Origin: Deltaproteobacteria bacterium | Lineage (GTDB): Bacteria > Desulfobacterota > GWC2-55-46 > UBA9637 | Direction of reading: 5' to 3' | DNA length: 64,000 nucleotides | NCBI GenBank assembly: GCA_016219285.1 | Contig: JACRNJ010000006.1 | Span: forward strand, 4,988 to 68,987 | Shown: positions 10,836 through 37,514 of the stretch, in pieces | How the letters are laid out: each line of letters begins with the position of its first letter | Position numbering within the stretch: the first letter of the stretch is position 1 | The notes under the pieces: generated by a model | What the model saw: the letters and a program-made list of their open reading frames with translations, nothing else | Databases searched by the model: none | What the model was told of the DNA's origin: nothing | Position numbers and translations under genes: made by a program

Positions 10836-12110
10836 TCATCCCCTTTGCAAAGTGAAAATGTCACTTTTCTGTTTTTGAACAGGGTATTTTTGCAGCAATC
10901 TTGTTATTGGTTCCGGTAAAGTATTTAACATCCTATCCGGTTTGGAAACTGTTTTCAGCTCTTTGACATTCAGATAGTACTCCTTATATTTGATATAGAC
11001 TGTAGAATCCAGTCTTACCTCTACAGTTACTTTAGCCTTTGCATAAGAATATCTTCTACCATCCGGAAGTATCTGGAATATACGGTTCTTAAAAGAAAGG
11101 GTATTGTCAGCCATTACCGTTCTTTCCTCCCTGACAGAAAAGACCGCATCCATATCTACATGATTTGGGAGTGGTCTATAGGCTGGGGCTGCCTCTTTAG
11201 GAGATATTGCAAACTTTGAATTATATTTAGGCAGGAATGTTTTATGGAGGTATTTATTGGCATCTTTGATATTTGATATGCCCATGACCCTCATCTCCTT
11301 AAGAAGCCTGTCCTGAAAGGTTTTAAAGAGCCTTTCTATGCGGCCTTTTGCCTGAGGGGAGTTTGCCAGAATAAGATTTATCCCTATCTCAGAGAGCGCC
11401 ATTTCAATCTGTGTAGGCTCGTAAATACCTGTTAGATTGACACTGTAAGAAGAGTGGCGGGTAGTCTTAAAATGGCTTGCCCTATCTACATAAAAGGCAG
11501 CAGGCAAGCCCTTGTTCAGGATAAGTTCCCTCATAACCTGCATATTGTTAACGGTAGAGTCGGAATCTACGAATAGGGCATATGGGACTTCACCTGTAGC
11601 ATCATCTATGGCAGCAATAAGGGAGGCAACAGGGGCTCTGCCAAAAAACCAGTCATGTTCAGATGTGTCCATCTGGATTAAGAGCCCTTCCCTCGGCATT
11701 CTATCCCTCCTGGCGCGGTGTTTGGGGCGCTTTCTTGATTTGGTTCTTAGATTTGCATTGAGAAGGAGTGTCCTTATAAACTCTCTGGACACAGAGATGC
11801 CATGTTCCTCTTCGAGGGTCTCTTTAAAGTGGGAGCAATTATAGTCCTTATATGTGTTGGAATAGAGGTTTAAGATGGTTTTCTTTACAGGGGCAAGAAT
11901 AGCGATGCAAGGGACATTCCCCTTATTCCCATGGACAACTCCCTTTATGCCGTCTCTCTTGACTTTCTTTCTAAGCCTTATTACTTGTCTTACAGAAAGG
12001 TTTAACAACCGGGCTGCCTCCTTATTCTTTAATTTACCATCTAACAAATCCTTAATAATAGAATGTTTTGTTATCTCTTTCTGACTCAAAGTGATTACCT
12101 CCTCCTTCAT
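10836..12110 (-). CDS. ISNCY-family transposase (N-terminal HTH, integrase/rve catalytic core)
   Basis: 424 aa. The N-terminus matches IS1202/ISNCY transposases (MKEEVITLSQKEITK...AARLLNLSVRQVIRLRKK). A DDE-type integrase core is implied by the family. Confidence 0.8.
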   Translation of the reverse strand: MKEEVITLSQKEITKHSIIKDLLDGKLKNKEAARLLNLSVRQVIRLRKKVKRDGIKGVVHGNKGNVPCIAILAPVKKTILNLYSNTYKDYNCSHFKETLEEEHGISVSREFIRTLLLNANLRTKSRKRPKHRARRDRMPREGLLIQMDTSEHDWFFGRAPVASLIAAIDDATGEVPYALFVDSDSTVNNMQVMRELILNKGLPAAFYVDRASHFKTTRHSSYSVNLTGIYEPTQIEMALSEIGINLILANSPQAKGRIERLFKTFQDRLLKEMRVMGISNIKDANKYLHKTFLPKYNSKFAISPKEAAPAYRPLPNHVDMDAVFSVREERTVMADNTLSFKNRIFQILPDGRRYSYAKAKVTVEVRLDSTVYIKYKEYYLNVKELKTVSKPDRMLNTLPEPITRLLQKYPVQKQKSDIFTLQRG

Positions 12111-12336: not shown

Positions 12337-12412
12337 GGGCCCATAGCTCAGTTGGAAGAGCCACCGGCTCATAACCGGTCGGTCCCTGGTTCGAGTCCAG
12401 GTGGGCCCACCA
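12337..12412 (+). tRNA. tRNA-Met (anticodon CAT; elongator-type or tRNA-Ile2 lysidine type)
   Basis: 76-nt cloverleaf: acceptor gggccca/tgggccc, anticodon loop ctCATaa, T-loop ggttcgagtcc, 3' CCA encoded. Confidence 0.85.
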
Positions 12413-13848: not shown

Positions 13849-14334
13849 GAAGAGGGATTCGCTGAAGTGAGACGAGATGGCCGCTGCCCCGGTGTTATAT
13901 CGGGATAGAGGAAAGTCCGGACTCCACAGGGCAGGGAGGTCGCTAACGGCGACCTGGATAATCCAAGGGAAAGGGCCACAGAAAATAAACCGCCCCGCGC
14001 CTTACGGTGCGAGTTATCAGTCAAAAGCCAAAAGCCATTAGTATTTTTTTTACTGGTGACTGATGGCTAATGACTCCTGACTCCGAGGCGTCAGCCTCGG
14101 TGGGTAAGGGTGAAACGGCGGGGTAAGAGCCCACCGCCCCGATGGCGACATCGGGGGCTTGGCAACCCCCTCTCGGAGCAAGACCAAATAGGAAGGCATT
14201 TAAGGACTGCCCGTCCGCGCCTTCGGGTTGGTTGCTTGAGGTGCTGAGCAATCAGCATCCCAGATGAATGGCCATCGTTCCAATGCAATATCGGAAAGAC
14301 AGAATCCGGCTTATTGTTTCACTTCAGCGAATAA
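13849..14334 (+). ncRNA. rnpB: RNase P RNA (bacterial type A)
   Basis: The P1 helix pairs gaagagggattcgctgaagtga with tcacttcagcgaat. Conserved GGAAAGTCCGGACTCCACAGGGCAGGG, AGGGTGAAACGGCGGGGTAAGAGCCCACC and ACAGAATCCGGCTTA blocks are present. The six-frame ORFs overlapping it are spurious. Confidence 0.85.
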
Positions 14335-14404: not shown

Positions 14405-15298
14405 TTATCTAATTGCTAACTTCTTTAAGGATATGCTGCTTCCTAAAATGCCTAGGATAACCCCTGTGGCGATAAGCCCCGAAGTAAAGTAGATTGTAAA
14501 AACAGGCAGGTCAACAAATTGGGCAAATGCAGACGGCGTCTTTAACATCAAAAAATACCTACCCATATACAACAGGCCAATAGATATAACTGCACCTAAA
14601 AAGCCTTCCAGTATAGCTTCTATAAAAAAAGGTGCCTTTATAAATATATTGGTTGCCCCTATTAAACCTAATATCTCTATTTCTTCTCTTCTGGAATATA
14701 AAGTAAGCCTTATGGTGTTTGACACGATAAAAACTGTGGCGACAAGGAGAAAACTGCCTATGATTAAGGCAAAACCCTCTACAAATTTGATAAAAACAAA
14801 GAATCTCTCCACCCATTCCTGGCCATATTGGACATCCTCAATACCGCCAATCATCTTCAGTCTTGAGGTAAGCCCTTTGACACCTTGAGGGTTTCTGAAT
14901 AAACCTTTTACTCTAATCTCCAGCGATGCTGGAAACGGGTTTATACCCAACCCATCTAATATTCCTTTTTGCCCCTTCAACTCTTCTTTAAATATAGAAA
15001 ATGCCTTTTCCTTAGAAAGATATTCCGAATCCTCTACCTCAGGCATACCTGCTATTTCTTTCCTGATATTTAAAATAGTGTCTTGCGGCAAATCATCTTT
15101 CAGATAAGCTACAACCTGAATACGTTTGCCAATACTGCTTAGTATGTTGTTCAAATTTATAAAAAAACCCAGAAATAATCCGCATATGGCCAGAGATATC
15201 GCAATGGTTGCAATTGTTACAAGGGATGTCGCAAGATTACTCCTTATATTTTGGAACGATTCGGAAATGAAATGTGCAAACCATCTAAAGTAATTCAA
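14405..15298 (-). CDS. ftsX: Cell division ABC transporter permease FtsX
   Basis: 297 aa with FtsX topology and family similarity (MNYFRWFAHFISESFQNIRSNLATSL...). Confidence 0.85.
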   Translation of the reverse strand: MNYFRWFAHFISESFQNIRSNLATSLVTIATIAISLAICGLFLGFFINLNNILSSIGKRIQVVAYLKDDLPQDTILNIRKEIAGMPEVEDSEYLSKEKAFSIFKEELKGQKGILDGLGINPFPASLEIRVKGLFRNPQGVKGLTSRLKMIGGIEDVQYGQEWVERFFVFIKFVEGFALIIGSFLLVATVFIVSNTIRLTLYSRREEIEILGLIGATNIFIKAPFFIEAILEGFLGAVISIGLLYMGRYFLMLKTPSAFAQFVDLPVFTIYFTSGLIATGVILGILGSSISLKKLAIR

Positions 15299-15317: not shown

Positions 15318-15995
15318 TTAGTTTACTATCCTGCCTCTATCAAGAAGAATGGCCCGTTTGTTAAATCTGTCTATTATGGATTTATCATGGGTAGCAACAA
15401 CAACAGTTGTTCCCCTGAGGTTTATATCATTAAAAAGATTGATTATATCTACAGCCCTCTCAGGGTCAAGATTTCCTGTAGGTTCATCAGCAAGAAGAAT
15501 AGTTGGTTCCTTTGCCAATGCCCGCGCAATAGCCACCCTCTGCTGCTCTCCGCCTGAAAGCGTTAATGGCTTAAAATTTGCTTTATGCTGAAGCCCCAAA
15601 TAAGAGAGCACCTTAAGGATCTTTTTACTTATGTCGTTGTTGTCCATACCTGTAATTCTGAGAGCCAGGGCAATATTATCAAAAACTGTTTTGTTGTTTA
15701 AAAGCTTAAAATCCTGAAAAACAAAACCTATCTTTCTTCTAAAAAATGGGATATCTTTTTTCCTAAATCTTGATATATTTTTTCCGCCCATTATAATTTG
15801 CCCTTGTGTAGGTTTCTCCATATAGAACATAAGCCTTAATAGTGTTGACTTGCCAGCCCCGCTTGCCCCGGTTATAAAAACAAACTCCCCTTTATCAATC
15901 TTAAAGGTTACATCTGTTAATGCAGACATGCCGTCATAATTCTTATATACATGAAACATGTTTATCATATTCGGCCCAGACAATGTCCCCGCCAT
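15318..15995 (-). CDS. ftsE: Cell division ATP-binding protein FtsE; the true start is probably a few codons internal
   Basis: Walker [13 protein letters not shown] signature [15 protein letters not shown], Walker [13 protein letters not shown]. Confidence 0.85.
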
Positions 15996-16016
15996 TTATA
16001 TATAGCTTGGATGCTC

Positions 16017-17162
16017 CTAAAATAGTTTTTTTATTTTCTCCTCTGCAAATATCTGTGTAATTTTTTCTTGCTCTAGTCTGATATTATTTTGTCGCAAATG
16101 GTTGTAAAGCTTCACCTCTGATTCTGAAAGTCGTTGCAAAGTTTGATTTGTTGCCAGCCTTCCTTCTCCGCTTTTGAAATTTGTCAAAGTTTCTTCATCC
16201 ATCATTACAGCAATCGTGTTCGTGAAATATGTCCTGAACTGATTGAGAATTTGAAAGCCTTGCGCATCTAAATCTCCCCAGTAGTAAAACTGTTTACTCT
16301 TTAACCAGTCAATGTCTTTAAGGTAACTCACACTAAAACCGCCGCCGCTCCAAATTGCAATTGTTTTTGTCAAGCAGGGAAGGGTAAGAAAATTCATTAT
16401 ATTCTCCGCAACAAAGATGTTGTCGCAATGAGAATGGAAGTTGCTGAACTCAGAAAGTGTCAATGAAATGTCAGTTGCCGTTTTTATTGGAGAGAACCGG
16501 TTATCCAAAAATCTAATTCTGATTAACGGCTCTGCATATTTCAAATTGAATCGCTTTTCAAATTTTCTTTCGTTTTGATTTATACTGTCTGGAATCAAAA
16601 ATTCTAAAAGTGATTGAATGATACTTTCGTTTTCGGAAATGTATTTCGTATGGATGTCAATAGGCAATTGTCTGATGTATAAATCAGGTTTTGGATTTTC
16701 TAAGAAATACCTGCAAACTTTCAAGGTGTCAAACCATGTGTCGTGTTCAATCAACCTTATCGGGTTTGCTTTTATCCATTTGTGAAGCGCAGGCAATTCC
16801 TGAATTATCATTGAATGATTTTTCAAAAATATTCCATACCCTTGTTCCTTTCCCACAATCCGCAAGTAATCATCAATGCTTTCTACAATAATTTTTTCAG
16901 GAACCTGCTGCTTGCCGATTTTATCAAACTGTCTTTCTGCCAAAATTAATTTGTAACCAAGTTTTTTATTTTCTTTTGAATGGCTTTGCAATAAGCAAAC
17001 AGAATCTCTGTAGGCAGAAAGATTTTTTAAAATATCTTTTGAATTTATTTTTCCGATTCTATTTATCTCTTTGGGGAAATATGAAAGAGAATTAGATGCA
17101 GAAAGCAAAACATCTTTCCACCATCTTAAACACTGCCCTTGTATTTCCTTCGGAGTTATCAT
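16017..17162 (-). CDS. jetD: Wadjet system protein JetD (DUF3322 + DUF2220/Toprim-like)
   Basis: 381 aa. The C-terminal YWGDLDAQGFQILNQFR toprim-like motif is characteristic of JetD/MksG. It is the last gene of the four-gene jet operon. Confidence 0.7.
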   Translation of the reverse strand: MITPKEIQGQCLRWWKDVLLSASNSLSYFPKEINRIGKINSKDILKNLSAYRDSVCLLQSHSKENKKLGYKLILAERQFDKIGKQQVPEKIIVESIDDYLRIVGKEQGYGIFLKNHSMIIQELPALHKWIKANPIRLIEHDTWFDTLKVCRYFLENPKPDLYIRQLPIDIHTKYISENESIIQSLLEFLIPDSINQNERKFEKRFNLKYAEPLIRIRFLDNRFSPIKTATDISLTLSEFSNFHSHCDNIFVAENIMNFLTLPCLTKTIAIWSGGGFSVSYLKDIDWLKSKQFYYWGDLDAQGFQILNQFRTYFTNTIAVMMDEETLTNFKSGEGRLATNQTLQRLSESEVKLYNHLRQNNIRLEQEKITQIFAEEKIKKLF

Positions 17163-20100
17163 CAGTTCGTTTCCGTTATTTCAATCCTATTGATGAGCGC
17201 ATTGTGTAAATATTTTTGTTCTTTGTATTCCTCAACTGTCAGGTTCTGCAATTGGGAATTGTTCCCGTCTGTGTTGGATACATAATGAACAGAATTTATG
17301 TAATTCTCAATCACATGAATTTTTTGTAACGGAGTTACAATCAATAATTGCAAATTCAGTTTTTTGAAAAGTCCTAACCCGAATTGGGTGCTTTCGTCAT
17401 CACCCCTGCCAAATGCTTCATCAATAACTACAAAACGGAATGATTTGCTTCTCGGTTCTCCATAGGACAAACCAAACTGATACGCTAATGCAGAAGCTAA
17501 AATTGTGTATGCTAACTTTTCTTTCTGTCCGCCCGACTTTCCAGATGTGCCTGCGTAAAACTCCTTTTCTGAATCATCTTCCAAATATTTTTCGCTTGCA
17601 TTAAAGATGAACCAGTTTCTTACATCAGTAACTTTATTCGTCCATTCAATTTGTTTGCTGTCATTGCTGCTGAAACGGTCTAAAATATTTTTCACTTGTG
17701 TAAATCGGTCTTCCGTGTAGGCATCGCTTGTTCCCAAAATGTTGCTGTAACATTCTTTCAACTCTTGTCTGAACTGTTTTATTTCTTGGTCAGAGTTTCT
17801 ATCGTCCAATAATTTTATGTAAGTGCCTTTGTTGAATTCAATTTCTTTCAAGTGCTTATTTATTTCTTCAATTTTCTTTTTGATTGATTTGAAATGATTA
17901 TCCAACTTACTGTCAAAAGCAACAATATCGTTGATGGTATTTTCATTTAACATTTTTTTGAATCGCGCTTCATGTGTTGGCAAACCATCCTTAAGAATTT
18001 TATTCAGCTTATCTAAGTATTCTGCTCTGCTTTCAATTTCATCAGATAACTCCATTGAATCGGAAGGAAACTGATTTTTGTATTCCTTCATTTGCTTAAT
18101 GATTTTATCTCTAACACTGCTTTGTTTTTCAGTAACAGATTTTCTTTCCTCATTTTTTAATTTCAAAAAATTGTCTTCGGCCTTGTCAATGTTTTTAACA
18201 GTAAGTGAAGTGTCTTTAAGTTCTTCAGCAATTTTAGGGTAGAAGGATTCTCTTTCGTTTTGCAGCAGAGTTGCTGCTATTTGTTTGCATTCCTCAATTT
18301 CTTCCCTGTTCTCTTTTGTTTTTTCATCAAACTTTCCTTTATCTTCCAATCCTTGTGTTTGTTGCTTTTCTAATTCACCAATTTCATTCTGAACAATTTT
18401 TAATTGTTCTTGCAGCGTTTTTAAAATATCATTGCTGCTTTCTAAATTCTTTTTCTCCATCTCCAATTTAGAAATTTCCTTTGCTTCATCTTGCCAATTC
18501 AACTCATTCCAGTTGGTATAAGCAGTTACTAAATTGAGTTTGGTGTTTAAAGTTGTGTTCTTGCCGATTTCTGTTTTCAGTTTTCCTAATGCTTCATCAA
18601 TTTCCTTTTTCTCTTTTCGTAATTCATTCAAGTGTTTTTCAACTGCAAGTATTTTTTCCTTGTTCGTCCAACCTAAAACAAAATTTCTTCTATCCCATAA
18701 TTCCCTGCGGTCGTCCTTTGTGTGTCGTTGGCTTCCTGTCTTAAATTGTCCTTCTTTTGTAATTACATCACTCTGTCTTTGAAATTCTTCTAATGGAACA
18801 CATCTTAAATTGAATCGCCTTTGTAGTTCTGCCTGCAACCATTCTTCAAAAGGGGTGTCGGTTTTAATATCAATTTTATTAACGACTGAATCAGTGTCAA
18901 TATCATTTTGAAAATTATTCAGTTTGAAATTGTGAGACGCTTTAAAATATTCAAACCTCATTCCCCTGTTCTTATTATCTTTCAACTTCCGTGCATTAAC
19001 ATATTCACTTATCTGCCTGTAATGTTTTTCAGGAACTAACATACTAATGCCAAATCCTCGCAGCAATCTCTCTAAAGCGCCTTCCCAATCTTTTTCACTT
19101 TCATTTACTTTTAGCAATTCACCCGCAAAAGGAATTTCTTCTTCTTTAATTTCTAAATCGTTTGCTAACTGCTCACGGATGTTTAATATCTCCAAAGGAA
19201 TTTGATTTACTCTGTTTTTAAGAGACTCTAATTCTTTATTTTCCGATTCAATATTTTCATCAATCAAAGATATTTTACCAATTAATTTTCCGTGTTCTCC
19301 TAAAATTATTTGTTGTCTGTTTTCCAGCTCGCCGATTTTTTGCTTAGCTGATTTCAAATTTGAATAAAAAGTTTTCTCGGCATTTGCCGTTGGCAAACCA
19401 CAAACAGAAGTGAGTTCGGAATATAACTCATATTTTCCTTTTTTTGATTTCTTATCCTTTCCCCTCTGCTCAATTTCATAGGCAATTTGTTTTAACCTTG
19501 CCCCTCCATTGTTATCAATGTCCTGGCTGATTTGATTCTCTGCCTTTCTTTTTATTTTTAATCCTTCTTTTATTAGAGAAAGTTGGGTTGCGAGTTGATT
19601 TAATTTTCCTTCGCACAATTTTATTTCTTCTTGCAGCAAGTCAACTTTCTTTGAAGCAAACCAGCTCGGAATAGATTGAACAATATTATCAATCTCTTGA
19701 ATTAGCCTTTCAAAATTTCCGAAACTTTCACCCAATTCCACTAATGGTTTTAAAATATCCCTTTGCCTCCGCGCCTCTTGTACGGCTGCATATGCCTTAT
19801 TCAAATCATCAAAGCGTTTTTTGAGTTCATCAATTTGTGTTTTTATTTCAGTTCGCTCCAACATTTGCTCTCTAACAAATGCTGTCAGACTGCTGACTGA
19901 TTTCATTGAAACAGTTTGATAAAACAGGTCAATTGCTTTATCGGAATTCATTCCGAATAAATGACGAAACCTTTGACTGTATTGAGAAAAATTATCGTCA
20001 AACAATTCAATGAAAGAATGTGCTTTTAATTTCTTTCTTAACCCTCTGGCATCTTCAATGTCGGTGAAATATTCTTTTATCGTAAGCGGGCTGCTGCTGA

Positions 20101-20558
20101 TAATTAAAAGTTTTTGCGGTTTGTCATTTTCAATCCAAAACACTTGTCCTAAGGTGATGTTGGTATTGTATCCGATATTATTAAAGTTCGCCAAGATGAC
20201 TGTGAAAGTTGAATCAGTTGAGTTGGTATAACGAAGTGAAACGGCTTTGCCTTTCAAATCAAATTCATCCCTTTCAAATTTGTAATAACCTTTGATATTA
20301 AGAAATAAAATTACGCTCTTTCTTTTCTGCGTTTGCAGCTTTATTGAAATTGATAGTATGGTGTGGAACTATTAAGCAGGTAAGCGCATCAACAAGAGTG
20401 GATTTACCCGAACCAATAGAACCTGTGAGTAAGGAATTATTTCCGTTTGGCTCAATTCTCCAAATTTTGTCATGAAAAGTTCCCCAGTTTAGCAGCTCCA
20501 TATATTGCAAGCGGAAACCTATTTGTGAGTTATCTCTATTGAATTCAAGTTCTCTCAT
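17162..20558 (-). CDS. jetC: Wadjet SMC-like ATPase JetC, interrupted by a +1 frameshift; the 86-aa N-terminal Walker A fragment is 20298-20558 and the main body is 17162-20257
   Basis: The N-terminal fragment carries TGSIGSGKSTLVDAL. The body frame stays open upstream of its nominal start and reads ...KGYYKFERDEFDLKGKAVSLRY, contiguous with the fragment after a 1-nt slip in the T-run tttatttctt. The body is a long coiled-coil with C-terminal ABC signature and Walker B-like motifs. Confidence 0.75.
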
Positions 20559-21124
20559 TCGGCTGTTTGACTTGCATAATTTTTTAGTTTCTCCAATGAA
20601 TCTTTTACTACATCAGCATTTATAAACGCCTTTATGATTCGGTTGATTTCGTATTGCTCATCATCTGTTTTCATCTTGCGTAAAAAACCCTCATCAATCA
20701 CTCGTTTAATTGCCGCTTCAATTTGTTTTACTTGGTTTGCTTCGTTAGTTGATTCTTTGTAAAATGGTTTTATCATATTCAGAATTTCATCTCTGGTCAA
20801 AACCGCTTTTGTTGATTCGCCTTCGCTGTCGTTTTCTATCAAATGTTTCCTAAGCAGCAAACACAAAAGCGAAACATGAAAATTAAGCTGCCTTTTCTCA
20901 ATAAGTTTTGGTGTTTCATCTTCGCCGTCTTCGCTTACTCGTTGTTTCAAATAAGCATATCCTTCGGGTTTGTCAATAATTACATCAAGATAAATGTCGG
21001 TAAAATATTTCTTGATGTCAGATTCATACAATAAAAGTTCATCCCAAATTTTTTCATTGTGATTGTAAACGATGCCTTTCAGCAAGGCAATTAATATGTT
21101 TGTATACGGTTTGTTCATCGGCAA
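20555..21124 (-). CDS. jetB: Wadjet system protein JetB (DUF4194-like)
   Basis: 189 aa, acidic small protein. It sits between JetA and JetC with ATGA-type overlaps, which matches the size and operon position of JetB/MksE. Confidence 0.65.
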   Translation of the reverse strand: MPMNKPYTNILIALLKGIVYNHNEKIWDELLLYESDIKKYFTDIYLDVIIDKPEGYAYLKQRVSEDGEDETPKLIEKRQLNFHVSLLCLLLRKHLIENDSEGESTKAVLTRDEILNMIKPFYKESTNEANQVKQIEAAIKRVIDEGFLRKMKTDDEQYEINRIIKAFINADVVKDSLEKLKNYASQTAE

Positions 21125-22545
21125 AATATAATTTGAGGAATTTTTACTTTGAAGTTTTTATTTGTTTTTGAATTTTTGATGTCAATAAAATCATATGAAC
21201 TTTCATCAACTATATGTTTGTTCTTTTCCTTTGACGCAATTTCAAGATAAGCCACAACTTCTACAACGCCTTTTTGTATTTCAAACTCTCTCACAAATTC
21301 AGAAAAAGAAATTTGCGACTTGTGTTTCAAGGCGGTTTTTATTTTGTCTTTCAATTCTGCAATATCTATTTCAAATTGCTCAAATAGTAAATCATTGTTG
21401 CTTGTTGATTTTCCTTCTTCGGGATTGTTGTTTGCGAATTTTATTTTCTGCGGTGGATTGAAAAGAGGTCTGTCAACAATCAAGTTAATGTCTATCGTTT
21501 CGTCCAACTCTAACAAAGAAAGTTTGCTGAAATCCATTTCAGTATTTTCGCTGATAATTTTTAAGGCCTCGGTAATGTTGTCGTGAATACGTTTGTTGTC
21601 AAGAAAAGATTTATGCTCTAAATATTTTCGGAGTTGTTCCAATAATGAATTTGTTGTCTTGTTGGTTTTGTCTCCTGCATCAATCAAGTTGTTTCTGATG
21701 TTGTCAATGCTGAAATTTTCTTTTTGAAGTTGTTGAACCACCGGTATGCCCAACACCTCATCAATAAGTTTTTCAAATTCGTCTTGCTTGGATTGCGATA
21801 AAAGAAACTCCCAAAAGGCAATGAAACTTTTTCCCTGGTCTGTTTCTAATAAAAAATCCTGCTGCTGAAAAAGTTCTTCCAGCACCTTTCCTTTTGCCTG
21901 ACTTGTTGTAATAATTTTCTTTCTGAAATTTCTGTCTAAGTCACGGAAGTTTTGTTCTACTTGCCTGAAATCAGCCAATAAATATTTTGCTGTTTCTTCA
22001 ATGAGGAAATACTGCTCTTTAATTTGCCTGTCGTCAAGCAACTCCATTTTGCCGCGCTTAACATCTTCAATTTCCTGTTCAATGCCTTTCTTCTTTGTTT
22101 CCAATTCCTTAATCCTCGCTGCAAAATCTCTTTTTGTTTTGGAAGATAGCTCTTTTAGTTGTTCAAAAAGGTTTTTCAATCGTGATTCCGTTCCTACAAA
22201 TTCGGGTTTGTCTAAATCGTCAATCCACTTCAAAACGTTTTCAGCCGCAGGTGTTAATTCGTAAATCGGTTCGTCATTAGTGTAAAAATACTTTCGCAGG
22301 AACCCAGAGTTTGTCCAGTCAGTTAAATATTCCTTTGGCTGCCTTGAATATCTATTTTCACCTTGGTTGGTAATGTAAAGATGATCGGTTAAGAGCGATA
22401 TGAGGTCTTTCTCTGAAAAGGTGATAAGGTTACTCTGTTTGTATGACTTGAAAAGAAAACTAATAATCAACGGGGCATTGTCGGCAGTTATGAGTTTAAT
22501 TGTCGTATTGGCTTTGAGTAGTTGATATATTTTTTCAAAAGTCAT
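21115..22545 (-). CDS. jetA: Wadjet system protein JetA (DUF3375-like)
   Basis: 476 aa. It is the first gene of the operon, and its size and position match JetA/MksB. Confidence 0.7.
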   Translation of the reverse strand: MTFEKIYQLLKANTTIKLITADNAPLIISFLFKSYKQSNLITFSEKDLISLLTDHLYITNQGENRYSRQPKEYLTDWTNSGFLRKYFYTNDEPIYELTPAAENVLKWIDDLDKPEFVGTESRLKNLFEQLKELSSKTKRDFAARIKELETKKKGIEQEIEDVKRGKMELLDDRQIKEQYFLIEETAKYLLADFRQVEQNFRDLDRNFRKKIITTSQAKGKVLEELFQQQDFLLETDQGKSFIAFWEFLLSQSKQDEFEKLIDEVLGIPVVQQLQKENFSIDNIRNNLIDAGDKTNKTTNSLLEQLRKYLEHKSFLDNKRIHDNITEALKIISENTEMDFSKLSLLELDETIDINLIVDRPLFNPPQKIKFANNNPEEGKSTSNNDLLFEQFEIDIAELKDKIKTALKHKSQISFSEFVREFEIQKGVVEVVAYLEIASKEKNKHIVDESSYDFIDIKNSKTNKNFKVKIPQIIFCR

Positions 22546-22872
22546 TTTGTTTTACATATAGTAACAAATTTAGGAATAAATGTCCGCCTTTGTGCGTTGG
22601 GGCAAAAGCAAATGCGGCGCATACCAAAATCAAAATAATAAACTAATGAGCCTCTTTTGCTTTTGTAAAAACGGTAATCAAACGGCTTTGCCGAAATTGT
22701 TTTTGTCGTCTGTGTCCGCTTGTCAAATTTGATGTTTGCATTGTCGTCAAAAAATTATTTATATTATACTATCCGGCGCAAAACAAATAGTCCGATAAAC
22801 AATAGTTTGATAAACAAAAGCCCCTCTCCTCTCATTCCAAAATTTAAAATGAGAAAAGAAGGGCAACGAGTA

Positions 22873-22949
22873 TGGCGGGGCCGACGGGGCTCGAACCCGC
22901 AACTTCCGCCGTGACAGGGCGGTGCTCTAACCAATTGAACTACGGCCCC
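22873..22949 (-). tRNA. tRNA-Asp (GTC)
   Basis: The reverse complement gives GGGGCCGTAGTTCAATTGGTTAGAGCACCGCCCTGTCACGGCGG...TTCGAGCCCCGTCGGCCCCGCCA. The anticodon loop is CTGTCAC. Confidence 0.85.
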
Positions 22950-27167: not shown

Positions 27168-28328
27168 TTAGGGCAAGGTTTTACGCCATATCATATCAAC
27201 TTTTTCAATCATGCGCTTAAGGTCAAAACTCTCTCTTACAAATCTTCTCCCTGCTTCACCTACCGCAATCCTCATATCCCTGCTTTTTAATAAGAGGCTG
27301 ATGTTTTGTGAAAACTCCTCCGCCGTATCTGCAACAAGGATATCTCGTCCAGGAACGGCCTCTATCCCTTCATTGCCGATGGATGTAGTAACTACAGGGA
27401 GGGAGTGCGCCATGGCCTCTATATTCTTCGCTATGATGCCGCCGCCTCTGAGAATAGGGGAGACAAATATCGTAGCCTTCTGATAGTATGGCGCTATATC
27501 ATCTACATATCCTGTAACAACAATATTCCTGTCATAAGACGACAGATCTTTAATATGCTGAGGGGGATTATTTCCCACCACATAAAATTGAATACCCGGC
27601 ATCCCCTGTTTTACCCGAGGAAGGATATTTTTAAAAAAATAGATTACGGCTTCCTGATTGACATCCCTGTGCATTGCTCCGGCAAAGAGTATGATGTTTT
27701 CTTCTCCGGCACAATGGGGTGGATATTCGGAAGTTTCAACCGCATGTGGTATTACATGAATATTCAGATTAGGGTTAAACGAGAGAAGGATATTTTTATC
27801 CATGCGAGAGCGTGTAAATATCGTGTCAAATTTACCGGCTATGGAGAGTTCTATGCTTTTGCTTATACGCCACCGCAGCCAGTTGATAGTTTTTTGCAAC
27901 ACCCCTTGAGAAGCGCGATACTGTCTTTCAGCAGGCTTTGATATTACATCATGGGCATCCAGGATCATCCTTGCCTTTTTATGCCTCTTTATGAATAATC
28001 CTGCTTCCGTGTGTTCCACCTGCACGATATCAAAATTTCTTTTCCGTATGATTCGGTTTGCCCTGATGGCAAGATTAAGGTAAGAGGCAATAATAAAAAA
28101 AACCCGCAGAGGGTTATCAGCATCCGGGGTCTTAAACTTATAGAGTTCAACCTCTTTACAAAAACCCCCCATTTCCTGAACAAAACCTATCTCGTGCGGC
28201 TCTATTCTGGAAAAAAGATATATCTCATGTTGTGCGTACAATCCCTTTATTATTTCATAAACAGTTTTTCCGCCTGCATGGGGAACCCCAACATAAGGGA
28301 AAAACGGGGTAACAATCAAAACCTTCAC
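27168..28328 (-). CDS. Glycosyltransferase, GT4 (GT-B, family 1-like)
   Basis: 386 aa with GT4 features (MKVLIVTPFFPYVGVPHAGG; C-terminal E-x7-E-like region). Confidence 0.75.
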   Translation of the reverse strand: MKVLIVTPFFPYVGVPHAGGKTVYEIIKGLYAQHEIYLFSRIEPHEIGFVQEMGGFCKEVELYKFKTPDADNPLRVFFIIASYLNLAIRANRIIRKRNFDIVQVEHTEAGLFIKRHKKARMILDAHDVISKPAERQYRASQGVLQKTINWLRWRISKSIELSIAGKFDTIFTRSRMDKNILLSFNPNLNIHVIPHAVETSEYPPHCAGEENIILFAGAMHRDVNQEAVIYFFKNILPRVKQGMPGIQFYVVGNNPPQHIKDLSSYDRNIVVTGYVDDIAPYYQKATIFVSPILRGGGIIAKNIEAMAHSLPVVTTSIGNEGIEAVPGRDILVADTAEEFSQNISLLLKSRDMRIAVGEAGRRFVRESFDLKRMIEKVDMIWRKTLP

Positions 28329-29441
28329 CTACAGCAACCCCTTTACCGCGTTGAATACCATCTCTGCAGTTATCTGTTCCATACAGCTCGGACTAATATC
28401 ACAGGTCTGCTTATAGCAGCATAAGCAGTTGATATCCGCATAAATCTTCCTGCCTCGGCCATACAGGTCTATCTCTGCATGAGATGTCGGGCCGAATAGC
28501 GCCACAACCTTTTTCCTGAGCGCCGTCACTGCATGCAATGCCAGAGTATCGCCGGTAACAAATATATCGGCAAGGTCAACCAGTGAAAAGAACTCTCTGA
28601 TTGTATTTTCACAACCCGTATCAATGAGTGGCCCGCCGTGTTTTTTCTTTAATCTTGCATTTCGCTCTTTTTCCTCCGGGCCGCCGTAAAGCAGTATTCT
28701 GGAGTTTGGAATATTTTTATTCATCAGTTCAATAAGCCTGGAAAATCCCTCCTCTGTCCACTGTTTCTTTTCCCATCTTCTTCCTGCCCCCGTATTCAAA
28801 CCTATCCTCATCTCACCAGACTGAAGAGCGTTTTTTCTTGCAAACTCTTGGGCAAATCTTTTTTCTTTGTCGCTGAGATTCAGTATTATTTCGCGGTTTT
28901 TGGTTTTCAATCCCAGTATGGCAAATACTATTTCCTGGTAGGTTCTGGTATTGGCCTTTTTCATATCATCAAATAAACCCATCTCAAACCATCTTGCCGC
29001 TTCCTTATTCAGAGGATAAACGTATCCCCTTGCATCATAGCCAAAGCCGATTCTTGACCTTGCTTTAGCGCTCTCCGCAATAATTGCGCTTTTCGGGTCC
29101 GCGTCAGGATTTATCACAATATCGTAGCTCTCACTTTGAACCCTTAAGAAAGATTCGGCAGAATAGTCAAGCACGCAATCTACCAGGTCATTATTTTCAA
29201 ACAGGGGAACTGATTCTTTTCGGGTAAACCAGAGGATGTATGAGTCGGGATGTTGTTCCTTGAGTCCGTGCAGTATAGAGGTTGTTCGAAGGACATCTCC
29301 GACAGCATCAAGCTTTATAATAAGGATTCTCTTTTTCACCCTTTGATAAAAACGACATCCCTTGCAGTGAACCCATTTTTCTTTATGCGGCTTGCAGGGA
29401 ATGTTGCCCTTAAAGTATCTGCAATCCTTGTGTATTATCAT
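28329..29441 (-). CDS. Glycosyltransferase family 9 (heptosyltransferase-like) with a Cys-rich N-terminal extension
   Basis: 370 aa with GT9 motifs (ILIIKLDAVGDVLRTT...GDTLALHAVTAL). The N-terminal ~35 aa contain CxnC...CxxC. Confidence 0.7.
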   Translation of the reverse strand: MIIHKDCRYFKGNIPCKPHKEKWVHCKGCRFYQRVKKRILIIKLDAVGDVLRTTSILHGLKEQHPDSYILWFTRKESVPLFENNDLVDCVLDYSAESFLRVQSESYDIVINPDADPKSAIIAESAKARSRIGFGYDARGYVYPLNKEAARWFEMGLFDDMKKANTRTYQEIVFAILGLKTKNREIILNLSDKEKRFAQEFARKNALQSGEMRIGLNTGAGRRWEKKQWTEEGFSRLIELMNKNIPNSRILLYGGPEEKERNARLKKKHGGPLIDTGCENTIREFFSLVDLADIFVTGDTLALHAVTALRKKVVALFGPTSHAEIDLYGRGRKIYADINCLCCYKQTCDISPSCMEQITAEMVFNAVKGLL

Positions 29442-30988
29442 TGGTATCCCTGCGTCAGTTTTTTATAAACAAAACCTATAAAAGGATTTTTCCGGAAGAT
29501 ACCTGTAATGCCCTTTAAACATGCATATGCAGCCCTATACAATAACTTCTTCGCTGCACAAGGGGAGCGGCCTGTGATGAAAAAATCATCTTTCGCCAGG
29601 TGCTTGAGCCTTCCTGTCAGGAGATGTCCAATCCAGAGTTTAAACAGTGTCTTCTTTATGCCAAAATCAATGCCTGATGCAAGAATGTTTTTAAAGAAAT
29701 ACATGGGTCTTGAATAATAAAAAGATTCCATTTGGCTTGCCAGCACAACCAGATCCTTTTCCGGCACCGCGGAAATAGATATAGGATAAGCCCCGAAGTC
29801 TCTGTAACTGTTGAACCTCTCCCAATCGTATTTAATATTTTCTGGCACATACTGATATATAGGACTCCCTGGAAGAGGGGAACAAATAAAAACTGGAGCA
29901 AAGGTCGGATTCACTTCACACATAAGGTTATAGGTGTCTCTTATAGTAGCAACTGTGTCCAGTCTGTGATTAATCATGTTAAAGGCATAGGTCATAATAC
30001 CTGCTCTCTTTGCAAGGTCAAAGGTATTCTTTATTTCCTCATTAGTCATCTTCCTGCTTATATCTTCTCGCACTTTAGCATTTCCTGACTCCAATCCAAA
30101 TGCGATAATATAACAACCACTCTCTTGCATGGCAGAGAGAAGTTCATAATCAACAGTACCTACTTTGCCTAAGCATCGCCAGGGAAATCTTAAACCCCTC
30201 TTTTTAAACTCTTCAAACAGTTCGTAAAGCCATGCCCGCTTAGCCGTAAAAAGCTCATCATGAAACATGACCTCATCATAGCCAAATCTCTCAAACATAT
30301 ATTTGATCTCATCCACCACATTCTTTGGACTTCTCCTCCTGAAGACAGAGCCGTAAACAGCCTTATTGCAATAGGCGCAGCTGAAAGGACAGCCCCGTGA
30401 CGCCGTCAGATTCAATATTTTTTTGCCGACCTCTATCCCTTCTGATGGATATGTGTACTTTTCTATGAGATCGTTGGCAGGAAAAGGTAGAATATCCAGA
30501 TTCTCTATATAAGGTCTCGACCCTGTATGGACAATAGTCCCGTTATTCCGGTAGTAGATGCCCTGAACTTGATCCAGATTCGATCCCTTTTCAATAGCCT
30601 TGATAAGCTCAATAATGGTTACATCCCCTTCTCCGCATACGAGAACATCTGCCTCTGGACAGTCCAACATTGTCCTTTCCGGCAAGGCTGTAGCATGATG
30701 CCCTCCAACTATAATTTTAATATGGGGAAATTCTTCCTTAAGACCTTTTATATACTGCAAGGTTTGAGGTAGACCAAAGGTATAAAGGCTGAAACCGACA
30801 ACATCCGGGGAAAAGTTTTTCATATAATCAATTGAAGGATAGTTAAGTTTATTCTCCTTCGCCCCCTGATCATAGATATCCACCTCATAATTTGCTTTTC
30901 TTAATGAGGCGGCAAGGTAAAGGATGCCAAGAGGCGGGTTCTGATTAAAGTCTATGCCATTGGATTGATTGATAAGGAGTATCTTCAT
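29438..30988 (-). CDS. B12-binding (class B) radical SAM protein
   Basis: N-terminal cobalamin-binding domain followed by a radical SAM core (SRGCPFSCAYC). Confidence 0.8.
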   Translation of the reverse strand: MKILLINQSNGIDFNQNPPLGILYLAASLRKANYEVDIYDQGAKENKLNYPSIDYMKNFSPDVVGFSLYTFGLPQTLQYIKGLKEEFPHIKIIVGGHHATALPERTMLDCPEADVLVCGEGDVTIIELIKAIEKGSNLDQVQGIYYRNNGTIVHTGSRPYIENLDILPFPANDLIEKYTYPSEGIEVGKKILNLTASRGCPFSCAYCNKAVYGSVFRRRSPKNVVDEIKYMFERFGYDEVMFHDELFTAKRAWLYELFEEFKKRGLRFPWRCLGKVGTVDYELLSAMQESGCYIIAFGLESGNAKVREDISRKMTNEEIKNTFDLAKRAGIMTYAFNMINHRLDTVATIRDTYNLMCEVNPTFAPVFICSPLPGSPIYQYVPENIKYDWERFNSYRDFGAYPISISAVPEKDLVVLASQMESFYYSRPMYFFKNILASGIDFGIKKTLFKLWIGHLLTGRLKHLAKDDFFITGRSPCAAKKLLYRAAYACLKGITGIFRKNPFIGFVYKKLTQGYQ

Positions 30989-31095
30989 TTTACAGATCTT
31001 CCCTTTCTAAATTTTACACCAATCTTTTCTGGCAACCCCATAAGAACCTTCTCGGAATTCCAAAGCAGCCATATTTTTTCATTAAGCCATAGCAT

Positions 31096-32826
31096 TTAAT
31101 TTTTGGGAACAAGTTCATAACAATGGTTTAGTTTCTCTATTTTTTCTTTGGTCTCCGACTCTTTTTCTATGGACTCTTTATAATACGGTATCGCCTTCCC
31201 GTATTCACCGATATGATAATAATAATCGGCAATCAATTCACTGTGATTTAAGAGTCTCGGATAAGGATATACACAGGGTATTTTAAGCCTCTGTACCTCC
31301 GACACAAACCTCTCAAACCGTTCCAGCCTTTTCAAGTAATTGTTTTTGCCATCGCTGGATTCCCAGTAGGAAGCGCCTTTTGAGATATCTATCCTGTAAT
31401 TTTCTGGCTCCGCATATGCAGCAGTCCCCGGATGTATAAGACAGAATGCGGAACTCGGGTTTATGGCATATATATATTTTGCGTTACGTCTTATGAAGTT
31501 GATGTTTTCTTCCGCATCATCATCGGTTTCACCAGGCAGGCCAAACATAAAATTCAAGCCGCACCCGACCCCTGCCCTGTAAGAATCCCTTACAAGTCTG
31601 TCTATATCGGATGCTGCGGTAAAAATCTTTCCCACCTTTTTTAAAAGCGGTTTGGAAGTTGATTCAAGCCCATAGGCCAGGGACACACACCCGGCTTTCT
31701 TAAACTTTACCAGAAGCTCATAGGTCATTTCTTTTCTGACCACCGCCTGCCCGCCCCAGAACACATTCAGCCTGTCTCTTATAATATTGTCGCAGAGACG
31801 TTCGATCTCAGTAATATTGCCGTTAATGAGGCTGTCATGAAACTCAAAGTACGAAATATGCGGGTGCTTTTCAATCTGATAACGCATCTCGTCATACAGG
31901 GAATTTCCGCTACGAAAGCGATATCCACCCCAGAACGCTCGCTCATTACAAAAAACGCATTTATTTATACAGCCGCGGCACGATTCTATGGGACATTTAA
32001 AAGGCTCTCTGTATCTGAAAAAATTAAAATCGGTAAAGTCCGGAAATGGTAAGGTATCCAAATTCTTTATGAATGCCCTCGGCGCCACAGGAACTATAGC
32101 ATTGCCACATTTAAACGTAGCGCCCTTACATTCTACAATATCTTTTCCATCATTGACGAGTTTGACAATCTCAAGAAACGTTTCCTCGCCCTCGCCTTCC
32201 ACGACGAAATCAATACTATCGTTTTCTTTGATAATGCTTCTGCCGGTTATCCGCCCGCTTGCGCCGGCGCCCCCAAAAACCACGGTAAGAGCCGGGTTTC
32301 TCTTTTTTATCTCCCTCGCCATATAGGCGCTCATCCGATAGGAGCTGTCAAAAATAGTAAACCCGATTATACGCGCCCCGCTATTGGCTATAAGTTCTAT
32401 ATATTGTTCCAGCGCCTCTTTATTGTCGTTGATAAACGCATCCAGTGTCGAAGGGTTGTCCCAAAACCAGAATACATTATTAGACCACCCGTCGGGGTAT
32501 TGGTGTTTGTTTTTGTTATACATCTCCACATTAATATCAACCGGCATTACCTTTATACCATTTGCCCTTAGAAATGCCGTAAGGCAGGCTATTGCAAGCG
32601 GCGGGGTATCAACACCCCAGCCGGGGGCCTGCACCAGCACCACATGAGGGCTTTTGTATCTAATGGAGGAAAGATGTTTAAGATAATCGCCGGCAGGCCT
32701 TTTATAAAGAAGGCGCGTAACAACAGCTCTTACCGGCACCATCCAGCGCCTTAAAAAAGGAAATACCCCTGCAACCCAAAGTCCGGTGGTAATAACAATC
32801 CTCGCTATGTAATCAAGTAACTTCAT
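31096..32826 (-). CDS. B12-binding radical SAM protein with an N-terminal hydrophobic segment and a TPR-like C-terminus
   Basis: 576 aa with a B12-binding-like domain and a Cys cluster (CPIESCRGCINKCVFCNE). Confidence 0.7.
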   Translation of the reverse strand: MKLLDYIARIVITTGLWVAGVFPFLRRWMVPVRAVVTRLLYKRPAGDYLKHLSSIRYKSPHVVLVQAPGWGVDTPPLAIACLTAFLRANGIKVMPVDINVEMYNKNKHQYPDGWSNNVFWFWDNPSTLDAFINDNKEALEQYIELIANSGARIIGFTIFDSSYRMSAYMAREIKKRNPALTVVFGGAGASGRITGRSIIKENDSIDFVVEGEGEETFLEIVKLVNDGKDIVECKGATFKCGNAIVPVAPRAFIKNLDTLPFPDFTDFNFFRYREPFKCPIESCRGCINKCVFCNERAFWGGYRFRSGNSLYDEMRYQIEKHPHISYFEFHDSLINGNITEIERLCDNIIRDRLNVFWGGQAVVRKEMTYELLVKFKKAGCVSLAYGLESTSKPLLKKVGKIFTAASDIDRLVRDSYRAGVGCGLNFMFGLPGETDDDAEENINFIRRNAKYIYAINPSSAFCLIHPGTAAYAEPENYRIDISKGASYWESSDGKNNYLKRLERFERFVSEVQRLKIPCVYPYPRLLNHSELIADYYYHIGEYGKAIPYYKESIEKESETKEKIEKLNHCYELVPKN

Positions 32827-33947: not shown

Positions 33948-34033
33948 ATTACCCCTTACCTTTGTCCCGTCAACTCTCTATAAAAAAAATATGAATCTTT
34001 TTAAGCCTATTATTTTATTGAGAGAGCGCTGTG

Positions 34034-36621: not shown

Positions 36622-36626
36622 TCAAA
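36550..36626. repeat. Direct repeat copy 1 (~76 bp): the 5' end of wzx including its start codon
   Basis: It is near-identical (3-4 mismatches) to 37515-37591. Confidence 0.85.
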
Positions 36627-37378: not shown

Positions 37379-37514
37379 TTAATTCCTTAATCAAACGACT
37401 GGCAGGCCGATTCCTAATTTCTTTTCCCATAAAGTTGTCCCCTTCATCCCTTCTTTGCCTCTATCAGCATATACTTCCCCATATAAATATTATCGTAAAA
37501 CATAATAAGGGAAT

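What the first reader, a model, noticed from the sequence alone, without database searches (positions are those of the whole stretch)
16017..22545. Complete four-gene Wadjet (jetABCD) anti-plasmid operon
Four co-directional genes have sizes, order and motifs matching JetA (476 aa), JetB (189 aa), JetC (SMC-like ATPase, ~1117 aa, N-terminal Walker A GSIGSGKST) and JetD (381 aa, toprim-like YWGDLDAQGF). Wadjet is an established SMC-family system that restricts circular plasmid DNA. Here it sits 21 bp upstream of ftsE, with translationally coupled overlaps between the jet genes.
Basis: partly seen in the sequence, partly recalled or inferred. Interest (0 to 1): 0.6.

Follow-up and report, generated by a model that had tools for sequence, protein, structure and literature searches.

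The report
Wadjet anti-plasmid operon with broken jetC
This is an ordinary type I Wadjet (jetABCD) anti-plasmid operon that came in by horizontal transfer, but its motor gene jetC is broken by a single extra base, so the system is probably switched off rather than "complete".

Summary
The four-gene Wadjet call is right in kind but wrong in one important detail. On the minus strand of 16017-22545 lie jetA (476 aa), jetB (187/189 aa), jetC and jetD (381 aa). All match type I Wadjet profiles end to end (E 1e-67 to 0) and the solved JetA/B/C/D structures by sequence. Overlapping start and stop codons link the genes, and ftsE starts 21 nt after jetD. However, jetC is not one ~1117-aa gene. It is two ORFs in different frames (86 aa + 1031 aa). 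One extra A (TAT→TAAT, window 20298-20300) turns an invariant Tyr codon into TAA and shifts the frame. Deleting it restores a 1131-aa JetC, the same length as the closest intact homologue (86% identity). The same lesion is in assemblies of two separate sequencing runs. None of about 140 relatives examined shares it; one long-read genome has a break of its own close by. dN/dS of 0.04-0.12 and the lack of other lesions show it is recent. All four subunits and the JetC ATPase are needed for plasmid cleavage, so the system is most likely inactive as encoded. The 6.6-kb cassette (GC 0.34 against 0.42-0.43 in the flanks) groups with Bacteroidota relatives but sits in a Deltaproteobacteria MAG chromosome. 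It is a known kind of system and of low interest.

The parts
22546..22614 (-). Leader upstream of jetA that travels with the cassette. It contains TAAATTTG (22565-22572), has no Shine-Dalgarno sequence, and is the likely promoter region.
   Evidence: DNA similarity to relatives L027, L002 and L006 starts at about 22614. A TAnnTTTG motif sits at the same distance from the jetA ATG in most Bacteroidota relatives. Promoter function is inferred.
21115..22545 (-). jetA: kleisin-like subunit, 476 aa, intact
   Evidence: Pfam DUF3375 1.2e-111, profile positions 2-474 of 474. PADLOC JetA1 1.7e-146. PDB JetA 8q72_E 4e-20.
20555..21124 (-). jetB: MukE/MksE-like KITE subunit, intact. It is 189 aa from the TTG at 21124, or 187 aa from the ATG at 21118, which overlaps the jetA stop as ATGA.
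   Evidence: Pfam DUF4194 1.6e-40 and MksE 2.3e-17. PADLOC JetB1 1.1e-66. PDB JetB 8as8_C 4e-6. Junction shown.
20298..20558 (-). jetC 5' fragment: 86 codons plus a TAA stop. It holds the Walker A motif GSIGSGKST (20397-20423).
   Evidence: Pfam AAA_29 1.2e-24. PADLOC JetC1 model PDLC00512, positions 5-87 of 1123, 1e-41. NCBI annotates it as a separate 86-aa 'AAA family ATPase', MBI5326861.1.
20298..20300 (-). Frameshift lesion. One extra A (20298 or 20299) turns the Tyr codon TAT into TAA-T, giving a stop and a shift to the +1 frame.
   Evidence: The window reads tcttAatatc. The nearest DNA relative L026/L029 reads tctt-atatc, and seven other relatives have TAY at this site. Tyr in [ST]YI[KR]G is invariant in more than 20 homologues. 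Deleting one A gives an open 1131-aa frame.
17162..20297 (-). jetC 3' part in the +1 frame. The ORF listing reports it as 1031 aa from the TTG at 20257. It covers the coiled coil, the hinge and the C-terminal head, with signature SGGQKEK (17516-17536) and Walker B VVIDEAF (17411-17431).
   Evidence: PADLOC JetC1 model PDLC00512, positions 107-1118, E=0, 1064 bits. Pfam SbcC_Walker_B 9.5e-22. The repaired protein aligns to PDB JetC 8as8_A over residues 14-1112 at 1e-58.
16017..17162 (-). jetD: CAP-like N-domain plus Toprim nuclease, 381 aa, intact. Toprim Glu is E253 in FVAEN (16401-16415); the DxD is D297/D299 in YWGDLDAQGF (16254-16283).
   Evidence: Pfam DUF3322 9.3e-31 and JetD_C 2.2e-41. 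PADLOC JetD1 1.6e-124. PDB MksG 8b7f 2.8e-17 and JetD(E248A) 8q72_M. In that alignment the query Glu falls on the mutated residue 248 and GDLD falls on GDMD.
22820..22864 (-). Intrinsic terminator after tRNA-Asp (22873-22949). It marks the upstream limit of the jet transcription unit.
   Evidence: 20-bp stem followed by TTTTGTTT. tRNA-Asp and tRNA-Val were found.
15318..15995 (-). ftsE (followed by ftsX at 14405-15298), 21 nt downstream of jetD with no terminator between. This is the host gene flanking the cassette.
   Evidence: TIGR02673 FtsE 3e-87 and FtsX 8.7e-75. No terminator-like site lies between jetD and ftsE.

Best explanation
The locus is a horizontally acquired, minimal type I Wadjet cassette. 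It consists of jetA-jetB-jetC-jetD plus about 70 nt of leader and spans window ~16007-22614 on the minus strand. It is inserted in the chromosome of a MAG that NCBI labels 'Deltaproteobacteria bacterium', between the tRNA-Val/tRNA-Asp genes and ftsEX.

In an intact system, JetA (kleisin), JetB (KITE) and JetC (SMC ATPase) form a loop-extruding motor. This motor recognises small circular DNA, and the JetD Toprim nuclease then cleaves it. The large chromosome is spared.

In this copy, a single-base insertion (an extra A at 20298/20299) creates a TAA stop after codon 86 of jetC and shifts the frame. The cell can make at most an 86-aa P-loop stub. It might also make a headless C-terminal fragment that lacks Walker A and the invariant YI[KR]G segment. 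Restriction needs all four subunits and JetC ATP hydrolysis, so the system is most likely inactive in this population.

The lesion is recent. Every other codon of the operon is intact and still carries the signature of purifying selection.

Shown: family membership, the frameshift, its presence in several assemblies, and its absence from relatives. Inferred: loss of function, the donor lineage, and promoter use.
For: Family and type:
- Full-length Pfam and PADLOC type I hits for all four products.
- Sequence matches to the solved JetA, JetB, JetC, JetD and MksG chains.
- Catalytic motifs are present: JetC Walker A, signature and Walker B; JetD E253, D297 and D299, which align with E. coli JetD E248, D290 and D292 (residues from 10.1101/2022.10.04.510915).

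The frameshift:
- jetC is two ORFs in different frames.
- The nucleotide alignment shows one extra A relative to eight relatives.
- Repair gives 1131 aa, the same length as the best intact homologue P0006 (86% identity). The other 118 proteins listed in that search are single chains of 1090-1141 aa.
- The locus of P0006 has an intact 476/189/1131/388-aa operon.

The lesion is real in the DNA:
- The identical split gene occurs in Logan assemblies of two different runs, SRR12113394 and SRR12113393. Both are 100% identical to the window.
- NCBI annotates the two pieces as separate proteins.
- The sequence context TTAATAT is not a homopolymer run.

The lesion is recent:
- dN/dS against L027 is 0.057 (jetA), 0.088 (jetB), 0.076 (jetC) and 0.095 (jetD). 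All four jetC segments fall between 0.04 and 0.12, and there is no second lesion.

Loss of function:
- All four subunits and JetC ATP hydrolysis are required for cleavage.

Horizontal transfer:
- Cassette GC is 0.343, against 0.42 and 0.43 in the flanks.
- Similarity to relatives stops at the cassette edges.
- 19 of 23 species-representative genomes that carry relatives are Bacteroidota.
- A TAnnTTTG motif upstream of jetA is shared with those relatives.
- The flanks are housekeeping genes: rpsB, tsf, pyrH, frr, tRNAs, ftsEX and RNase P RNA.
Against: - I could not inspect raw reads. A minority intact allele in the population, or a systematic error shared by runs from one study, cannot be strictly excluded.
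- Both Logan runs probably sample the same site and clone, so they are independent libraries but not independent populations.
- Loss of function is inferred from what is known about other Wadjet systems and was not measured here.
- A TTG at 20257, preceded by AGGGA 10 nt upstream, could in principle allow translation of a C-terminal fragment.
- The host label 'Deltaproteobacteria' is the submitter's or NCBI's. I did not re-derive it.
Confidence: 0.78

Rival explanations
1. The operon is intact and active. The extra A would then be a sequencing or assembly artefact, or a variant that happened to win in the consensus, and the organism makes a normal 1131-aa JetC.
For: - The source is a metagenome-assembled genome, and such assemblies do carry some indel errors.
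- Nothing else in the operon is damaged, and selection signatures are those of a working system.
- Two relatives from long-read assemblies (L026, L020) show broken jet genes that are evidently errors. An Illumina contig of the L026 lineage is intact.
Against: - The same extra base is present in three assemblies drawn from at least two separate read sets, at 100% identity.
- The site is not a homopolymer.
- Neighbouring genes in the window are not fragmented, unlike those in L026.
- No intact allele at 90% identity or more exists in the 15-billion-protein collection.
Confidence: 0.13
2. The break is functional. Either a programmed +1 ribosomal frameshift at UCU-UAA-U makes full-length JetC, or the 86-aa and ~1031-aa pieces are translated separately and assemble into a split SMC head.
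For: - The downstream frame is the +1 frame and a stop codon sits at the shift site, which is the geometry of prfB-type recoding.
- A TTG with a weak AGGGA upstream exists at 20257.
- Downstream codons show purifying selection.
Against: - None of the roughly 140 relatives examined (about 20 loci and 119 proteins) shares this shift; L020's nearby break looks like a long-read error. It is therefore not a conserved recoding signal.
- UCU to CUU is not a slippery re-pairing, UAA-U is a strong stop context, and no Shine-Dalgarno-like stimulator lies 3 nt upstream (sequence; the rules come from established knowledge of prfB).
- A restart at 20257 would drop residues 87-100, including the invariant YI[KR]G.
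- The selection signal is equally explained by a very recent lesion.
Confidence: 0.04
3. It is not a defence system but an MksBEF-type chromosome condensin, or a Lamassu-type SMC-like system.
For: JetB also matches Pfam MksE. The JetC fragment gives a weak LmuB hit at 2.5e-6.
Against: - A JetD/MksG nuclease gene with an intact Toprim motif is fused into the operon. That is the feature separating Wadjet/MksBEFG from MksBEF condensins (PMC10586767).
- JetC1 scores E=0 against 2.5e-6 for LmuB.
- The low GC and patchy phylogenetic spread fit a mobile defence cassette.
Confidence: 0.02

Closest known systems
E. coli GF4-3 JetABCD (type I Wadjet; PDB 8AS8, 8BFN, 8Q72)
   Same: - Same four subunits in the same order.
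- The repaired JetC aligns over residues 14-1112 at 1e-58. JetA matches at 4e-20, JetB at 4e-6 and JetD at 5e-6.
- JetD E253/D297/D299 correspond to E248/D290/D292, and the JetC Walker B Glu (E1047 in repaired numbering) corresponds to E1022.
   Different: - The sequences are only distantly related; the JetD match in particular is weak.
- jetC is frameshifted here.
- The cassette belongs to a Bacteroidota-centred subfamily, whose best PADLOC models are PDLC00457, 00487, 00512 and 00522.
Corynebacterium glutamicum MksBEFG (MksG structure, PDB 8B7F)
   Same: MksG is the best PDB match to JetD here (2.8e-17 over residues 83-380), with ENxxxF and YWGDLDxxGF conserved. The operon follows the same logic: an SMC complex plus a Toprim nuclease as the executing part (PMC10123090).
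   Different: It comes from a different phylum and the sequences are divergent. The motor subunit here is truncated.
Pseudomonas aeruginosa PA14 JetABCD (PDB 8DK1-3, 7TIL)
   Same: It is type I. JetC matches at 1.7e-54, JetA at 2.4e-18, JetB at 2.6e-5 and JetD at 3e-5.
   Different: The N-terminal IFDR motif of JetB reported for that system (PMC10586767) is not seen in the JetB N-terminus here, MPMNKPYTNILIALL. jetC is frameshifted here.
Naturally or spontaneously inactivated Wadjet: M. smegmatis mc2155 EptABCD null, and C. cellulovorans jetABCD deletion
   Same: These are precedents for Wadjet loss by mutation, after which the host becomes permissive to plasmids (PMC10586767; PMC12287153). 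This locus looks like an environmental example of the same kind of loss.
   Different: Those cases were selected or noticed in the laboratory and have a measured phenotype. Here only the genotype is known, from a metagenome.
Closest intact relative: Hainich groundwater metagenome contig (L027/L028; JetC P0006)
   Same: It shares 82% nucleotide identity over the whole cassette. The genes have the same lengths apart from jetD (476/189/1131/388 aa there; JetD is 381 aa here) and the same overlaps, and the leader carries the same TAAATTTG.
   Different: Its jetC is uninterrupted, and its flanks are different: two small ORFs upstream and no ftsE downstream.

Membership tests
Wadjet type I (JetABCD / MksBEFG / EptABCD) | JetA: DUF3375 kleisin-like subunit, full length | tested here: met
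   PF11855 1.2e-111 covering positions 2-474 of 474. PADLOC JetA1 1.7e-146 covering 1-478 of 480. PDB JetA 4e-20.
Wadjet type I (JetABCD / MksBEFG / EptABCD) | JetB: DUF4194 / MksE-like KITE subunit | tested here: met
   PF13835 1.6e-40, PF21980 2.3e-17, PADLOC JetB1 1.1e-66, PDB JetB 4e-6.
Wadjet type I (JetABCD / MksBEFG / EptABCD) | JetC: SMC-like ABC ATPase sequence with Walker A, signature motif, Walker B, long coiled coil and hinge | tested here: met
   The two fragments together cover PADLOC JetC1 profile positions 5-87 and 107-1118 (E 1e-41 and 0). GSIGSGKST, SGGQKEK and VVIDEAF are present.
Wadjet type I (JetABCD / MksBEFG / EptABCD) | JetC encoded as one uninterrupted reading frame, so that a functional motor subunit can be made | tested here: not met
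   A TAA stop follows codon 86 and the remainder lies in the +1 frame. The cause is one extra A relative to eight relatives. The other 118 proteins listed in the homologue search are single chains of 1090-1141 aa.
Wadjet type I (JetABCD / MksBEFG / EptABCD) | JetD: N-terminal DUF3322 (CAP-like) domain plus C-terminal Toprim domain with a conserved Glu and DxD | tested here: met
   PF11795 9.3e-31, PF09983 2.2e-41, PADLOC JetD1 1.6e-124. E253 aligns to residue 248 of JetD(E248A), and D297/D299 align to the DxD.
Wadjet type I (JetABCD / MksBEFG / EptABCD) | Single co-directional operon in the order jetA-jetB-jetC-jetD | tested here: met
   The order was confirmed on the minus strand, with ATGA, ATGA and TGATG overlaps.
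Wadjet type I (JetABCD / MksBEFG / EptABCD) | Type I rather than type II or III by sequence | tested here: met
   The best hits for all four proteins are JetX1 models. JetC2 scores 1.1e-9, JetD2 6.9e-9 and JetD3 9.5e-7.
Wadjet type I (JetABCD / MksBEFG / EptABCD) | ATP-dependent restriction and cleavage of small circular plasmids | not testable with these tools
   This needs a transformation or plasmid-loss assay comparing the native and the repaired operon. It is predicted to be negative for the native sequence.
MksBEF condensin (no nuclease) | Three-gene mksB/E/F operon without an MksG/JetD gene | tested here: not met
   A jetD gene overlaps the jetC stop codon and carries intact Toprim motifs.
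Lamassu (LmuB SMC-like) | Short (~650 aa) LmuB with LmuA effector and LmuC partner genes | tested here: not met
   There is only a marginal LmuB hit (2.5e-6) against E=0 for JetC1. The partner genes are JetA, JetB and JetD.

The most novel reading that the evidence does not exclude
The frameshift is an adaptive loss, or a recently fixed 'off' state. A Bacteroidota-type Wadjet cassette jumped phylum into a deltaproteobacterial chromosome and landed directly upstream of ftsEX, so it now forms the 5' part of that transcription unit. It was then knocked out in jetC under selection to tolerate a useful small plasmid. That would make it a natural counterpart of the M. smegmatis mc2155 and C. cellulovorans laboratory cases. 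The dead cassette would be kept only because ftsEX expression now depends on it.
Probability: 0.1. Interest if true: 0.35.

Novelty: new member of a known kind. Interest (0 to 1): 0.15.

Why it matters
There are two practical points.

First, automated defence-system callers (PADLOC and DefenseFinder logic) and a careful human reader would both score this locus as a complete Wadjet system. Both JetC pieces hit the JetC profile, and NCBI annotates them as two ordinary proteins rather than a pseudogene. Counts of 'complete' systems in MAG surveys can therefore include dead copies like this one.

Second, if the lesion is real, it is an environmental example of recent Wadjet inactivation. That fits the view that defence systems are gained and lost quickly, and that losing Wadjet opens a cell to small plasmids.

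Nothing here changes what is known about how Wadjet works.

Tried and rejected
- **Programmed frameshift or split JetC.** Rejected. None of the roughly 140 relatives shares this break (L020's nearby break looks like a long-read error), there is no slippery site or stimulator, and a restart would lose the invariant YI[KR]G.
- **An intact allele of the same strain.** The 90% clusters of both fragments contain no full-length member. The homologue search found nothing between 100% (the fragment itself) and 86% identity. One metagenome scan used a pattern that allowed 0 or 1 base at the site. It found only the intact allele of a different lineage (about 80% nucleotide identity), L029.
- **Independent jetC breaks in relative L026 as a sign of recurrent inactivation.** Rejected. 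Every gene on that contig is fragmented, which points to long-read errors, and the Illumina contig of the same lineage is intact.
- **tRNA-targeted island.** I found no integrase, no direct repeat of the tRNA-Asp 3' end, no flanking inverted or direct repeats, and no tRNA next to the cassette in 16 of 17 relatives.
- **Empty-site search.** Exact FtsE look-ups with two alternative starts were not on record.
- **Plasmid-borne close relatives.** PLSDB holds only matches below 30% identity, on ~2-Mb Ralstonia megaplasmids and on some actinobacterial plasmids.
- **Panas et al. 2014 (PMC4169951).** This paper on the M. smegmatis ept mutation is not held. I cite the review instead.
Full report
**What is at the coordinates**

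ORF listing shows a tight run of minus-strand ORFs between 16017 and 22545:
- 21115-22545 (476 aa)
- 20555-21124 (189 aa from TTG; 187 aa from the ATG at 21118)
- 20298-20558 (86 aa)
- 17162-20257 (1031 aa from an internal TTG)
- 16017-17162 (381 aa)

ftsE and ftsX are confirmed by NCBIfam (3e-87 and 8.7e-75).

**Family assignment**

Pfam gives the following:
- JetA: DUF3375, 1.2e-111.
- JetB: DUF4194 and MksE.
- JetC pieces: AAA_29 on the 86-aa piece and SbcC_Walker_B on the 1031-aa piece.
- JetD: DUF3322 plus JetD_C.

PADLOC models give JetA1 1.7e-146, JetB1 1.1e-66, JetC1 E=0 and JetD1 1.6e-124, each over essentially the whole profile. Type II and III models score only 1e-6 to 1e-9, so the locus is type I Wadjet.

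By sequence, the products also match the solved chains of JetA (4e-20), JetB (4e-6), JetC (1e-58 over residues 14-1112 of the repaired protein), and MksG and JetD (2.8e-17 and 5e-6).

In the alignment to JetD(E248A), the Glu of FVAEN (E253) falls on the mutated position and GDLD falls on GDMD. These are the Mg-binding E248/D290/D292 of E. coli JetD (10.1101/2022.10.04.510915). JetC has the signature SGGQKEK and Walker B VVIDEAF.

'JetC ~1117 aa' is 86 + 1031, the sum of two ORFs that lie in different frames. The first ends in TAA at 20298-20300, and the second is in the +1 frame. The PADLOC JetC1 profile is covered at positions 5-87 by the stub and 107-1118 by the rest, with the gap exactly at the break.

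A nucleotide alignment of the junction shows the window reading tcttAatatc. The nearest DNA relative reads tctt-atatc, and seven more distant relatives have a TAY Tyr codon at the site. That Tyr belongs to an invariant [ST]YI[KR]G motif in more than 20 homologues.

Deleting one A gives an open 1131-aa frame. That is exactly the length of the closest intact homologue, P0006, at 86% identity. The other 118 proteins listed in that search are single chains of 1090-1141 aa. The P0006 locus, from Hainich groundwater, carries an intact 476/189/1131/388-aa operon.

**Is the lesion real?**

The window comes from an NCBI MAG labelled 'Deltaproteobacteria bacterium' (HZB80_ locus tags). There the two pieces are annotated as separate proteins: an 86-aa 'AAA family ATPase' and a 1031-aa 'hypothetical protein'.

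The same split gene is present in Logan assemblies of two separate runs, SRR12113394 and SRR12113393. Both are 100% identical to the window. The site is not a homopolymer, and neighbouring genes in the window are not fragmented. I therefore take the extra A to be real in the DNA, at roughly 85% confidence, pending read pile-ups.

No intact allele of this lineage was found. The 90% clusters hold none. The homologue list jumps from the fragment itself to 86% identity. A metagenome scan allowing 0 or 1 base at the site returned only the intact allele of another lineage.

Broken jet genes in two relatives, L026 and L020, look like long-read errors and not biology. All genes on L026 are fragmented, and an Illumina contig of the same lineage is intact.

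**Age and consequence**

Against the L027 relative, dN/dS is 0.057 (jetA), 0.088 (jetB), 0.076 (jetC, with all four segments between 0.04 and 0.12) and 0.095 (jetD). There is no second lesion. The break is therefore recent.

[quoted passage not shown] An 86-aa stub cannot substitute for JetC. Nor can it do so together with a fragment lacking Walker A and residues 87-100. I conclude that the system is most likely inactive as encoded.

Programmed +1 frameshifting is unlikely. UCU to CUU is not a slippery re-pairing, UAA-U is a strong stop, there is no upstream stimulator, and none of the roughly 140 relatives examined shares this shift; L020's nearby break looks like a long-read error.

There are precedents for Wadjet loss that makes a host permissive to plasmids: the M. 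smegmatis mc2155 Ept null (PMC10586767) and the spontaneous jetABCD deletion in C. cellulovorans (PMC12287153).

**Origin and context**

The cassette has GC 0.343, against 0.42 and 0.43 on either side. DNA similarity to relatives runs only from about 22614 to about 16007. That covers the four genes plus a ~70-nt leader, with no integrase and no flanking repeats.

Among species-representative genomes, the nearest JetC proteins (52-68% identity) are in Bacteroidota in 19 of 23 cases. There are single hits in Nitrospirae and Endomicrobium MAGs.

The leader carries TAAATTTG about 24 nt before the jetA ATG and has no Shine-Dalgarno sequence. Most Bacteroidota relatives have TAnnTTTG at the same place. 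From my own knowledge, this is the Bacteroidota -7 promoter element, so a Bacteroidota-type origin is plausible but inferred.

The flanks are chromosomal housekeeping genes: rpsB-tsf-pyrH-frr, tRNA-Val, tRNA-Asp with a strong terminator, then the cassette, then ftsEX and RNase P RNA. No terminator separates jetD from ftsE. ftsEX may therefore be read through from the cassette or from a promoter inside jetD; this was not tested. Relatives are not next to tRNAs, and no close copies are on PLSDB plasmids.

**Verdict**

This is a genuine type I Wadjet cassette, a known kind of system, horizontally acquired and carrying a recent one-base frameshift in its motor gene.

The specialist interest is low. 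The main value is a caution that profile-based calls, and NCBI's own annotation, hide the pseudogene. There is also a small chance that this is a natural case of adaptive Wadjet loss.

Noticed in passing
window 22565-22572 (minus strand), within the leader 22546-22614: TAAATTTG lies about 24 nt upstream of the jetA ATG, with no Shine-Dalgarno sequence. The same TAnnTTTG motif occurs at the same distance in most Bacteroidota relatives. It looks like a Bacteroidota-type -7 promoter element carried into a non-Bacteroidota host.
   Followed up: partly
window 15996-16016 and 16081-16108: Cassette homology ends about 10 nt after the jetD stop, only ~12 nt from the ftsE ATG, and there is no terminator between. 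ftsEX may depend on read-through from the cassette or on a promoter-like site inside the jetD 3' end (TTTACA-16-TAATAT). A second ATG at 15968 fits position 1 of the FtsE profile better.
   Followed up: no
window 10836-12110 (minus strand) and 12337-12412: An ISNCY-family transposase (6.6e-114) sits next to a tRNA-Met gene, about 4 kb from the Wadjet cassette.
   Followed up: no
window 13864-14329 (plus strand): A bacterial RNase P class A RNA (315 bits) lies directly downstream of ftsX on the opposite strand.
   Followed up: no
window 27168-41773 (minus strand): A polysaccharide-type cluster contains four B12-binding radical SAM genes, a further radical SAM gene without a B12 domain hit, several glycosyltransferases, a flippase-like gene and a CmcI-type methyltransferase. 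ORFs 34034-35335 and 35113-36621 overlap by 223 nt, and GC jumps from 0.357 to 0.511 at about 35 kb.
   Followed up: no
L026 8258-9500 (ENA ERZ1286166 contig_4127): In this ~80%-identical relative, about 1.2 kb is inserted between jetA and jetB, with an HTH_21 (IS3-like) fragment. All genes on the contig are fragmented, which is probably long-read error.
   Followed up: partly
L029 1-45 (Hainich H41 contig): The contig starts inside jetC, but its first ~45 nt do not match the jetC N-terminus of its own lineage. This suggests an insertion or rearrangement boundary near codon 17 in that population.
   Followed up: no
one search hit list: Many contigs carrying close JetC homologues are only 6-8 kb long, about the size of the cassette. 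The cassette may often assemble on its own because its flanks vary between strains.
   Followed up: no
L020 2553-3151 (Microflora Danica MAG, Chitinophagaceae): jetC is also broken near codons 85-90 in this relative. This is probably a long-read indel error and not a shared lesion.
   Followed up: no
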